In this document: piece by piece, positions 1-710 of the stretch | Position numbering within the stretch: the stretch's first letter is position 1 | Layout: each line of letters begins with the position of its first letter | NCBI GenBank assembly: GCA_964581585.1 | Contig: CAZOPG010000001.1 | Span: 1-24,102 of the forward strand | Reading direction: 5' to 3' | Length of the DNA stretch: 24,102 bases | DNA from: an uncultured Planctomycetaceae bacterium | Lineage (GTDB): Bacteria; Planctomycetota; Phycisphaerae; Sedimentisphaerales; UBA12454 | Notes under the pieces: model-generated | Database searches by the model: none | What the model was told of the DNA's origin: nothing | The model's input: the letters and a program-made list of their open reading frames with translations, nothing else | Position numbers and translations under genes: made by a program

Positions 1-223
1 CGGATATGTTTGCCAATGCAATTCCGGAATGACCGCGGCAGGCCGCTATCAGATTCACAAATAATTCCGGTGCACTCGTCCCAAAAGCGACCAGTGTAAC
101 GCCAACCACCACTTTCGGAAGGTTCAGACTCCTGGCAACTGCTGAAGCCCCCCTTATGAGCCATCCTGCCCCATAATACAGAAGAACAAAACTAACTAAC
201 AACAATATAAGATTGAGAACCAT
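1..223 (-). CDS. yrbG: Calcium/sodium antiporter (YrbG/CCX family), N-terminal part; runs off the left edge of the window
   Basis: Manual translation from ATG at 223: MVLNLILLLVSFVLLYYGAGWLIRGASAVARSLNLPKVVVGVTLVAFGTSAPELFVNLIAACRGHSGIALANIS. It has hydrophobic TM segments and the alpha-1 repeat motif GTSAPEL. Not in the supplied ORF track. Confidence 0.9.
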   Translation of the reverse strand, partial: MVLNLILLLVSFVLLYYGAGWLIRGASAVARSLNLPKVVVGVTLVAFGTSAPELFVNLIAACRGHSGIALANIS

Positions 224-226
224 ACC

Positions 227-304
227 TTATTTACTATGACGTACTTTCCAGCGAGCACGACGTTTTTTGCTACCCACTTTTCGCCTTCGTCTCGGCTTAG
301 CCAT
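227..304 (-). CDS. 25-aa highly basic micro-protein MAKPRRRRKVGSKKRRARWKVRHSK
   Basis: ATG at 304-302 and TAA at 229-227. SD-like GGAGA lies about 7 nt upstream and a sigma70-like promoter lies at 378-350. 14 of 25 residues are K/R. The stop is 3 nt before the antiporter ATG. Confidence 0.7.
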   Translation of the reverse strand: MAKPRRRRKVGSKKRRARWKVRHSK

Positions 305-349
305 TAAATATCTCCAAAATAACATTTTATATTAAACATTTGAGCCAAC

Positions 350-378
350 AGGATATATACTATTATCAGAAAATGCAA
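350..378 (-). promoter_or_regulatory. sigma70-like promoter for the micro-ORF/antiporter unit
   Basis: TTGCAT (378-373), 17-nt spacer, TATCCT (355-350). Confidence 0.5.
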
Positions 379-401: not shown

Positions 402-710
402 ATGATGATACAATGCAAAGACTGTGAATTTTGCGAAATCGCCCCTGGAAACCATAGAACGTTCAAATGCGACCCTTTCATCAACATCAAAGAGCCCGAA
501 TGTATCGCTAAATGGCAGCTAATCCGCCTTGATATGCTGCTGGCAAGCTATCACGGAATGCAGAAATGGCAGGAAAAGCTCGCGCCGCTCCAGGACAAGA
601 TATTCAAATATATGCAGCGTGAGATCGAAGATATTGACGAAACGGACAAATGGAAGCTCGACGAAAATGACCAAAGTGATGAAGACGACAAGCCGGACAC
701 CAAATACTAA
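402..710 (+). CDS. Hypothetical protein with Cys-rich N-terminus and acidic tail
   Basis: 102 aa. CKDCEFC-x11-C-x10-C, then a helical middle and a D/E-rich C-terminus. SD-like GAGG upstream. The stop overlaps the next start (TAATG). Confidence 0.8.
   Translation: MMIQCKDCEFCEIAPGNHRTFKCDPFINIKEPECIAKWQLIRLDMLLASYHGMQKWQEKLAPLQDKIFKYMQREIEDIDETDKWKLDENDQSDEDDKPDTKY

What the first reader, a model, noticed from the sequence alone, without database searches (positions are those of the whole stretch)
227..304. Unannotated 25-aa Arg/Lys-rich micro-protein with its own promoter, possibly a lineage-specific small ribosomal protein or leader peptide
Seen: a clean ORF MAKPRRRRKVGSKKRRARWKVRHSK (14 of 25 K/R) with a GGAGA SD, a TTGCAT-17-TATCCT promoter, and a stop 3 nt before the antiporter ATG. 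Known: the smallest ribosomal proteins (bL37, bS22, bTHX, eL41) have this size and charge and are often missed by annotation. It lacks their signatures as I recall them (KANHGKRP in bL37, GSVIKKRRKRM in bS22). Inference: a new rRNA-embedded protein of this lineage, or a translationally coupled leader that controls the antiporter.
Basis: partly seen in the sequence, partly recalled or inferred. Interest (0 to 1): 0.6.

Follow-up and report, generated by a model that had tools for sequence, protein, structure and literature searches.

The report
Unannotated conserved Arg/Lys-rich 25-residue microprotein gene
A 25-codon gene for an extremely basic peptide, missed by annotation, is conserved under strong protein-level selection in hundreds of Planctomycetota species. 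It looks like the tiny proteins buried in ribosomal RNA, it does not control the neighbouring antiporter, and whether it sits in the ribosome is untested.

Summary
The ORF is real. It lies on the minus strand at 304..230 (stop 229-227) and encodes MAKPRRRRKVGSKKRRARWKVRHSK. The genome is a Sedimentisphaerales (Phycisphaerae, Planctomycetota) MAG.

- **Distribution:** one copy is found in 39 of 41 related genomes. A profile finds it in most sampled Phycisphaerae families and in a few other Planctomycetota lineages.
- **Conservation:** thirteen positions are invariant. Invariant Arg columns use all six Arg codons. pN/pS is 0.20 in the sense frame and 0.38-3.4, with stops, in the other five frames.
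- **Expression signals:** a GGAG box 6-7 nt before the start and a TTGCA(A/T)-17-TATxxT element are conserved.
- **Leader-peptide idea rejected:** the downstream gene differs between lineages.
- **Neighbours:** the only conserved neighbour is a divergent Cys-rich acidic ~100-aa gene. This pairing is specific to Sedimentisphaerales, and the two genes' distributions are uncoupled.
- **No known family:** nothing matches in Pfam, NCBIfam or PDB sequences. The models for bS22, bTHX, eL41, bL34 and bL32 all miss it. Public calls say only 'hypothetical protein'.
- **No replacement:** bL32, bL36 and bS21 all coexist with it, and so does bL34 in most of the class, so it replaces none of them.
- **Natural losses:** two 99%-complete genomes of the order lack it.

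Best reading: a new family of arginine-rich RNA-binding microprotein, most plausibly an accessory ribosomal protein. This rests on resemblance and conservation only.

The parts
227..304 (-). Micro-protein gene: ATG 304-302, 25 codons (MAKPRRRRKVGSKKRRARWKVRHSK), TAA 229-227
   Evidence: Searches show the ORF. Homologues were found in 39/41 relatives, 223/301 class genomes at E<=1 and further Planctomycetota lineages. Sense-frame pN/pS is 0.20 with no stops in 127 sequences.
311..315 (-). Shine-Dalgarno GGAGA, 6 nt before the ATG
   Evidence: A GGAG-type core lies 6-7 nt before the start in most of the 111 of 117 distinct homologous upstream regions that have one, although the surrounding bases differ.
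350..378 (-). Promoter-like element: TTGCAT (378-373), 17-nt spacer, TATCCT (355-350)
   Evidence: Below the threshold of the generic scan. An equivalent element at the same position occurs in 77/132 homologous upstream regions against 12/132 shuffled.
402..710 (+). Divergently transcribed gene for a ~100-aa protein with four invariant Cys, one long helix and an acidic tail. It is the syntenic neighbour of the micro-gene in Sedimentisphaerales only.
   Evidence: Adjacent in 19/20 and 78/79 testable loci. No Pfam family or fold match. AF2 pLDDT 67. Its class-wide distribution is uncoupled from the micro-gene.
2..223 (-). 5' part of a CaCA Na+/Ca2+ exchanger gene that starts 3 nt after the micro-gene stop. 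This downstream neighbour is not conserved.
   Evidence: PF01699 E 5.5e-19 and TIGR00367. The downstream gene and its spacing vary between loci.

Best explanation
Window 304..230 (minus strand) is a real, translated, stand-alone gene for a 25-residue peptide with a charge of about +14. It belongs to a previously unnamed family of 24-31 residues, restricted as far as searched to Planctomycetota and found mainly in Phycisphaerae.

**Anatomy.** An extended N-terminal arginine run (K-P/S-R-R-R-R-K) is followed by an invariant (I/V)-G-S-K-K-R hinge. A short basic helix follows, whose tail differs by lineage: RARWKVRH in this order, RERRNRRKK or KARRDRRKR elsewhere.

**Inferred mechanism.** The peptide acts as an arginine-rich RNA-binding peptide that is stably bound to a structured cellular RNA. 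The most likely target is ribosomal RNA, making it an accessory, dispensable ribosomal protein of the kind represented by bL37, bS22, bTHX and eL41.

**Shown here:** coding status, purifying selection, conserved translation and transcription signals, phyletic range, and independence from its neighbours. **Inferred only:** RNA binding and ribosome membership.

The confidence given is for the whole statement including ribosome membership. That it is a real translated gene I hold at about 0.95.
For: **A conserved, translated gene.**
- One strong copy per genome in 39/41 relatives, at 72-96% identity and a constant length of 25-27 aa.
- The profile finds it in the sampled families f109, f110, f112, f114, f117 and f119 of the class. 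It also finds it in f67 and two further lineages of the phylum.
- Thirteen columns are invariant. All six Arg codons, and both AGY and TCN Ser codons, are used inside invariant columns. pS is 0.77 against pN 0.15. Only the sense frame is open in all 127 sequences.
- The GGAG box at 6-7 nt and the promoter-like element are conserved. Strong intrinsic terminators follow the gene in some loci.

**Consistent with a tiny RNA-bound protein.**
- The AF2 model of a 31-aa homologue has an extended N-terminus and a helix at 14-30 with pLDDT near 90.
- The nearest named look-alikes by language-model features are all tiny ribosomal proteins: COX24_C/bS22 0.87, eL41 0.86, bL37 helical region 0.84. These scores are leads only.
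- Lineage-specific small ribosomal proteins missed by annotation are an established phenomenon (PMC10618245; PMC11851116; bioRxiv 10.64898/2026.07.03.736309).
Against: - No direct evidence of expression or of ribosome association was obtainable. No RNA run holds the locus.
- No linkage to ribosomal-protein or translation operons was found in any lineage examined. Neighbours include an antiporter, a 2Fe-2S-like gene, MetK, a radical-SAM enzyme, DprA, PdxJ, ArgH and a secretin; trigger factor appears once.
- Two 99%-complete genomes of the same order (G522, a single contig, and G334) have no detectable copy. Several Phycisphaerae families also lack it, so it is dispensable.
- There is no sequence relationship to any known ribosomal protein.
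- The resemblance to tiny ribosomal proteins is largely compositional.
Confidence: 0.45

Rival explanations
1. A non-ribosomal polyanion binder. The peptide could act as a protamine-like nucleoid-compacting protein, as a general RNA chaperone, or as a subunit of another ribonucleoprotein such as RNase P, SRP or tmRNA. It could also bind polyphosphate.
For: The composition and arginine-run architecture suit DNA or any RNA equally well. There is no linkage to translation genes. The gene is dispensable in G522 and G334 and is not found in several families.
Against: Thirteen invariant positions, including G-S and a near-invariant Trp within the order, over class-level divergence suggest a specific, structured binding site rather than generic charge neutralisation. 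There is one copy per genome, with no arrays or length variation as seen in protamine-like proteins.
Confidence: 0.3
2. A functional pair with the divergently encoded Cys-rich, acidic-tailed ~100-aa protein. The acidic protein would serve as a dedicated chaperone or antagonist of the basic peptide, in a chaperone-client or toxin-antidote arrangement.
For: The two genes are adjacent and divergent, 100-226 nt apart, in 19/20 and 78/79 testable Sedimentisphaerales loci. Their charges are opposite: +14 against about -8, with an acidic tail on the larger protein.
Against: The distributions are uncoupled. Families f112 (0/27) and f114 (0/27) have the peptide but not the Cys-rich gene. Families f111 (9/9), f116 (7/7) and f120 (7/9) have the Cys-rich gene but gave only weak matches or none to the peptide profile. 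In f109 and f110 both are present but lie on different contigs. G522 and G334 keep the Cys-rich gene after losing the peptide.
Confidence: 0.08
3. A leader peptide or upstream ORF whose translation controls the downstream antiporter.
For: In this window the stop lies 3 nt before the antiporter ATG, and the ORF contains a run of four Arg codons.
Against: The downstream gene is not conserved. Where the antiporter follows, the gap ranges from 3 to about 200 nt. The full peptide sequence is under purifying selection, not just the Arg run. No Rfam element was found and no terminator/antiterminator stood out.
Confidence: 0.02
4. Not a gene: a chance ORF, or conservation due to a DNA or RNA element or a gene on the other strand.
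For: It is very short and is absent from most annotations. Antisense frames are open in some loci.
Against: Sense-frame pN/pS is 0.20 with 0/127 stops, against 0.38-3.4 with stops in 22-86 sequences for the other frames. The ATG or GTG start, the stop position and the SD box are conserved.
Confidence: 0.01

Closest known systems
bL37 (tiny helical 50S protein of Actinobacteria)
   Same: Similar size (my own knowledge puts bL37 at about 24 aa; this family is 24-31 aa). Both are very K/R-rich, begin with M-A/G-K, are predicted helical, are lineage-restricted, and are stand-alone genes often missed by annotation (PMC10618245 for the description of bL37).
   Different: No detectable sequence similarity: NCBIfam and PDB-chain searches were empty. 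The Pfam bL37 model is not in the local library. Different phylum. Ribosome binding is not shown for this peptide.
bS22 / mitochondrial mS38 (COX24_C, PF08213)
   Same: A small basic 30S protein that is lineage-restricted, was found unannotated in Borrelia, and can be missed even by mass spectrometry of purified ribosomes (PMC10618245). It is the nearest named look-alike by language-model features, at 0.87, which is a lead only.
   Different: The PF08213 model does not match the peptide or its locus in six-frame genome searches.
bTHX (Thermus) and eL41 (eukaryotes/archaea)
   Same: Peptides of about 25 residues made mostly of Arg and Lys, embedded in rRNA.
   Different: The PF17070 and PF05162 models do not hit the locus. 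There is no shared motif.
Arginine-rich-motif RNA-binding peptides (HIV Rev and Tat, lambda N) - comparison from my own knowledge
   Same: Short Arg runs and a basic helix that recognise structured RNA. The RERRNRRKK-type tails of families f109, f119 and f67 look much like such motifs.
   Different: Those motifs are segments of larger regulatory proteins of viruses. This is a free-standing chromosomal gene product, and no RNA target is known.
Amino-acid-sensing leader peptides of attenuators
   Same: A very short ORF with a run of identical codons just upstream of another gene in this window.
   Different: There is no conserved downstream operon and no alternative hairpins. The whole peptide is conserved.

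Membership tests
bS22 / mS38 (PF08213 COX24_C) | Match to the family HMM | tested here: not met
   hmmscan of the peptide found no hit at E<=10. A six-frame search of 5 genomes with PF08213 did not hit the micro-ORF loci. The control rang over the cut-off in 1 of 14 well-known control genomes.
bTHX (PF17070) | Match to the family HMM | tested here: not met
   No hit in hmmscan. The genome search hit only an unrelated weak site in G555, at 24.8 bits and below the cut-off.
eL41 (PF05162) | Match to the family HMM | tested here: not met
   The genome search gave only weak hits inside long unrelated frames and none at the micro-ORF.
bL37 | Sequence similarity to bL37 (family model or solved chains) | tested here: inconclusive
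   The NCBIfam scan was empty. Profile and single-sequence searches of all PDB chains were empty at E<=10. PF26427 is not in the local Pfam. HMMER's composition filters may suppress such short basic matches.
bL34 (PF00468), as a shortened or replacing form | HMM match, or a complementary phyletic pattern with bL34 | tested here: not met
   The peptide does not match. bL34 is present in 270/301 class genomes, including most that carry the micro-gene. The absence of hits in some Sedimentisphaerales is not complementary.
bL32 N-terminal segment | Profile similarity to the genome's own bL32 | tested here: not met
   hhalign probability 0.25%. A normal bL32 gene is present in all 5 genomes tested.
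Bacterial ribosomal protein (generic) | Physical presence in purified ribosomes | not testable with these tools
   No structure, proteome or RNA data are available for this lineage.
Bacterial ribosomal protein (generic) | Gene linkage to ribosomal or translation operons in at least some lineages | tested here: not met
   Neighbours are unrelated and variable across six lineages.
Bacterial ribosomal protein (generic) | Single-copy, near-universal presence within its lineage under strong purifying selection | tested here: met
   41 of 43 sampled Sedimentisphaerales have a strong match. The family tallies were f114 43/43, f112 38/44, f109 36/42 and f110 18/22. pN/pS is 0.20. Two natural losses qualify this.
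Attenuator leader peptide | Conserved downstream regulated operon and alternative RNA structures | tested here: not met
   Downstream genes differ between loci. There is no Rfam match.
Toxin-antitoxin-like pair with the adjacent acidic protein | Co-occurrence of the two genes | tested here: not met
   The distributions are uncoupled across families. The peptide has no hydrophobic segment.

The most novel reading that the evidence does not exclude
The peptide is a previously unknown, Planctomycetota-specific ribosomal protein that would receive a new bS/bL number. It would be embedded in rRNA through its invariant RRRRK-(I/V)-GSKKR core, with lineage-specific C-terminal tails tracking lineage-specific rRNA features. 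It would be the first lineage-specific ribosomal component known from the PVC group.
Probability: 0.4. Interest if true: 0.7.

Novelty: new member of a known kind. Interest (0 to 1): 0.55.

Why it matters
No ribosome structure paper for Planctomycetota turned up in the paper search. Lineage-specific tiny ribosomal proteins such as bS22, bL37, bL38 and bS23-25 have repeatedly turned out to affect antibiotic access, assembly or initiation.

This study provides a candidate with exact sequences, a defined phyletic range, natural loss strains and a predicted mass. That makes a simple experiment possible: top-down MS or cryo-EM of ribosomes from a cultured Sedimentisphaerales strain.

Even if the peptide is not ribosomal, it is a clear case of a strongly selected 25-codon gene that standard gene callers skip or mis-extend. 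In the protein library most called versions carry spurious N-terminal extensions. It therefore serves as a benchmark for microprotein annotation.

Tried and rejected
1. **bL34 replacement.** PF00468 found nothing in G000 or in four complete relatives, which suggested the peptide might be a shrunken bL34. A class-wide search then showed that bL34 coexists with the peptide in most genomes. Rejected.
2. **Displacement of bS21, bL36 or bL32.** All are present in genomes both with and without the peptide.
3. **Resemblance to the bL32 N-terminus.** hhalign probability 0.25%.
4. **Family and sequence searches.** Pfam, NCBIfam and PDB sequence searches, and the bS22, THX and L41 models, found nothing. 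PF26427 (bL37) is not in the library.
It was replaced by a profile search of 1.84 billion representative proteins. That gave 41 hits, all the same family, mostly the true ORF with a spurious upstream extension. Where a name is given it is only 'hypothetical protein'.
6. **Exact look-up** of 10 family members: not in the collection.
7. **Rfam** on 1-1000: nothing.
8. **Sequencing runs:** no RNA holder listed, only salt-lake metagenome DNA.
9. **The Cys-rich neighbour.** Its fold and families were uninformative.
10. **A bS22-like alignment recalled from memory** was not used. No tool supplied a bS22 sequence, so a direct profile-profile test against bS22 could not be run.
11. **rRNA comparison** between carriers and the two loss genomes was not attempted. 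One or two loss events give too little power.

Full report
**Observation.** The ORF is on the minus strand. Its ATG is at 304-302, it has 25 codons (MAKPRRRRKVGSKKRRARWKVRHSK), and its TAA is at 229-227.
- GGAGA lies at 315-311, 6 nt before the ATG.
- TTGCAT (378-373), a 17-nt spacer and TATCCT (355-350) lie upstream.
- The stop is 3 nt before the ATG (223) of a CaCA Na+/Ca2+ exchanger gene (PF01699).
- The peptide has 8 Arg, 6 Lys and no acidic residue. Its pI is 12 and its mass is 3159.8 Da, or 3028.6 Da without Met1.

**Organism.** Record titles of related loci name Planctomycetota, Phycisphaerae and Sedimentisphaerales MAGs. The window's genome is a 2.35-Mb MAG of 481 contigs, 89% complete. 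Its DNA is held by salt-lake metagenome runs.

**Is it a gene?** Yes.
- A six-frame search with the peptide found one strong match in 39 of 41 genomes of the same order. Identity was 72-96%, the ATG start was kept, and the length was constant at 25-27 aa. The in-frame upstream extension is not conserved and is often closed by a stop.
- From 149 loci I collected 126-127 distinct nucleotide versions.
- Thirteen residues are invariant: M1, K3, R5-R8, K9, G11, S12, K14, R15, K20 and R22.
- The invariant Arg columns use all six Arg codons, and the invariant Ser column uses both AGY and TCN. Mean pairwise pS is 0.77 (saturated) against pN 0.15.
- As a control I computed the same for all six frames. 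Only the annotated frame is open in all 127 sequences, with pN/pS 0.20. The others show 0.38-3.4 and stops in 22-86 sequences. This excludes a chance ORF, an antisense gene or a purely nucleotide-level element.
- A GGAG-type core occurs in 111 of 117 distinct upstream contexts, mostly 6-7 nt before the start, although the surrounding bases differ.
- A TTGCA(A/T)-17-TATxxT element ends 40-65 nt before the start in 77 of 132 upstream regions, against 12 of 132 shuffled. The generic sigma-70 scan did not list the window's copy.
- Strong hairpin-plus-T-run terminators follow the ORF in 37 of 131 loci, against 29 of 266 control windows. Textbook examples occur where the next gene is convergent.

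**Range.**
- With a single sequence, only the order is reached.
- With a profile of 64 members, 223 of 301 sampled Phycisphaerae genomes match at E<=1. This tally includes one unpublished genome, G688; no specific claim rests on it.
- Strong matches cover the Sedimentisphaerales (41 of 43) and the coded families f112, f110, f109, f114, f117 and f119.
- Families f9-f12, f111, f115, f116, f118, f120 and f123 gave only weak matches or none. One such weak match that I inspected was spurious.
- The N-terminal core M-x-K-(P/S)-RRRRK-(I/V)-GSKKR is constant. The tail is lineage-specific: RARWKVRH-type, HMRWKRRH, RERRNRRKK or KARRDRRKR.
- In a phylum-wide sample a broader profile added family f67 (MAFKPRRRRKIGSKKRR...). 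It also added two single genomes with longer N-termini (...KKTG(K/R)GRRKIGSKKRR...), each with its own SD box.
- A profile search of 1.84 billion representative proteins returned 41 hits, all this same family. Most are the true ORF at the C-terminal end of a spuriously extended call, and a few are correctly called 24-28-aa proteins.
- Where a source gives a name it is 'hypothetical protein', from JGI/IMG. Ten exact look-ups of family members were negative.
- The family is therefore effectively unannotated, and was found only in Planctomycetota among the genomes searched.

**Context.**
- The leader-peptide idea fails. The antiporter follows in only some loci, with gaps from 3 to about 200 nt. 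Elsewhere a 2Fe-2S-like gene or convergent genes follow.
- In other families the neighbours are MetK and a radical-SAM enzyme, DprA and PdxJ, argininosuccinate lyase, a secretin, and LeuA with trigger factor. No translation operon recurs.
- The one conserved neighbour is the divergent gene at 402-710. It encodes a ~100-aa protein with four invariant Cys, a predicted hairpin knuckle, one long helix and an acidic tail. It has no Pfam family or fold match.
- This gene sits 100-226 nt from the micro-gene in 19 of 20 and 78 of 79 testable Sedimentisphaerales loci.
- The pairing is order-specific synteny. The Cys-rich gene is not found in f112 (0/27) or f114 (0/27), which carry the peptide. It is present in f111, f116 and f120, which gave only weak or no matches to the peptide. 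It is unlinked in f109 and f110.

**Losses.** Two 99%-complete genomes of the order have no detectable copy anywhere: G522, a single contig, and G334. At the usual position G522 has the Cys-rich gene followed directly by the 2Fe-2S-like gene. The gene is therefore dispensable in nature.

**Comparison with known families.**
- Pfam, NCBIfam and all PDB chain sequences gave no hit at E<=10, with single sequences or with a profile.
- Six-frame genome searches with the bS22/mS38 (PF08213), bTHX (PF17070) and eL41 (PF05162) models miss the locus. The Pfam bL37 model is not held locally.
- A striking lead was that PF00468 (bL34) finds nothing in this genome or in four complete relatives. It did not hold up: bL34 is present in 270 of 301 class genomes, including most carriers of the peptide.
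- bL32, bL36 and bS21 are present in all genomes tested, and bL36 and bS21 were tested in both carriers and non-carriers. The genome's own bL32 shows no profile similarity to the peptide. The peptide is therefore an addition, not a replacement.
- bL38 is a larger beta-strand protein (PMC10618245, PMC11851116).
- By language-model features the nearest named clusters to a 31-aa homologue are COX24_C (0.87), eL41 (0.86) and the bL37 helical region (0.84). All are below the 0.9 level at which such hits are more than leads.
- AF2 on that homologue predicts an extended N-terminus and a helix over residues 14-30 with pLDDT near 90.

**Interpretation.**
- Shown: a translated, strongly constrained, stand-alone micro-gene with its own expression signals, conserved across much of a bacterial class.
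- Inferred: the peptide has no hydrophobic core or acidic residues, and it has an Arg run, an invariant G-S hinge and a basic helix. Such a peptide can only be folded on a polyanion. The degree of positional conservation argues for one specific structured partner.
- Ribosomal RNA is the most likely partner by precedent: bL37, bS22, bTHX, eL41, and the continuing discovery of unannotated lineage-specific ribosomal proteins.
- I put that at about 40-50%. Another nucleic-acid or RNP partner is at about 30%, a functional pair with the acidic neighbour at under 10%, and the leader-peptide reading at about 2%.
- No literature on such a protein or on a Planctomycetota ribosome structure turned up.

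**Verdict.** It is a new family of a known kind, tiny basic RNA-binding and probably ribosomal microproteins. It is of moderate to good interest because it is directly testable.

Noticed in passing
whole genome G000 and relatives G031, G037, G534, G038, G555, G522: The bL34 model (PF00468) finds no gene in this MAG or in several complete Sedimentisphaerales genomes (coded families f8 0/4, f2 1/4), although 270 of 301 Phycisphaerae genomes have it. Their rpmH is either very divergent or missing.
   Followed up: partly
window 402-710 (+): A Cys-rich ~100-aa protein with invariant C4, C7, C22 and C33, one long helix and an acidic tail. It is found in 105 of 201 sampled Phycisphaerae genomes and in more than 500 loci of the species collection. 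It has no Pfam family and no structural match. Its stop overlaps the start of the class-IV aminotransferase gene (TAATG at 708-712).
   Followed up: partly
G522:C1 around 2613428-2613709 (L216) and G334:C111 (L210): Two 99%-complete genomes of the order have lost the micro-gene but keep the Cys-rich neighbour. They are natural knock-outs that could be compared with carriers.
   Followed up: partly
G555:C1:643385-643462 (-): A weak bTHX-like match (24.8 bits, below the 29.7 cut-off) in a 62-aa open frame, unrelated to the micro-gene locus.
   Followed up: no
L143:1-1179 (-) next to the micro-gene at L143:1501-1578 (+): In one genome of coded family f112 the micro-gene is divergent from trigger factor (tig), a ribosome-associated chaperone. 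This was not seen in the two other f112 loci inspected.
   Followed up: no
protein library hits P0007, P0014, P0018, P0021, P0033: A few database proteins carry the micro-protein sequence at their N-terminus followed by unrelated residues. These are probably frameshifted or read-through gene calls rather than fusions.
   Followed up: no
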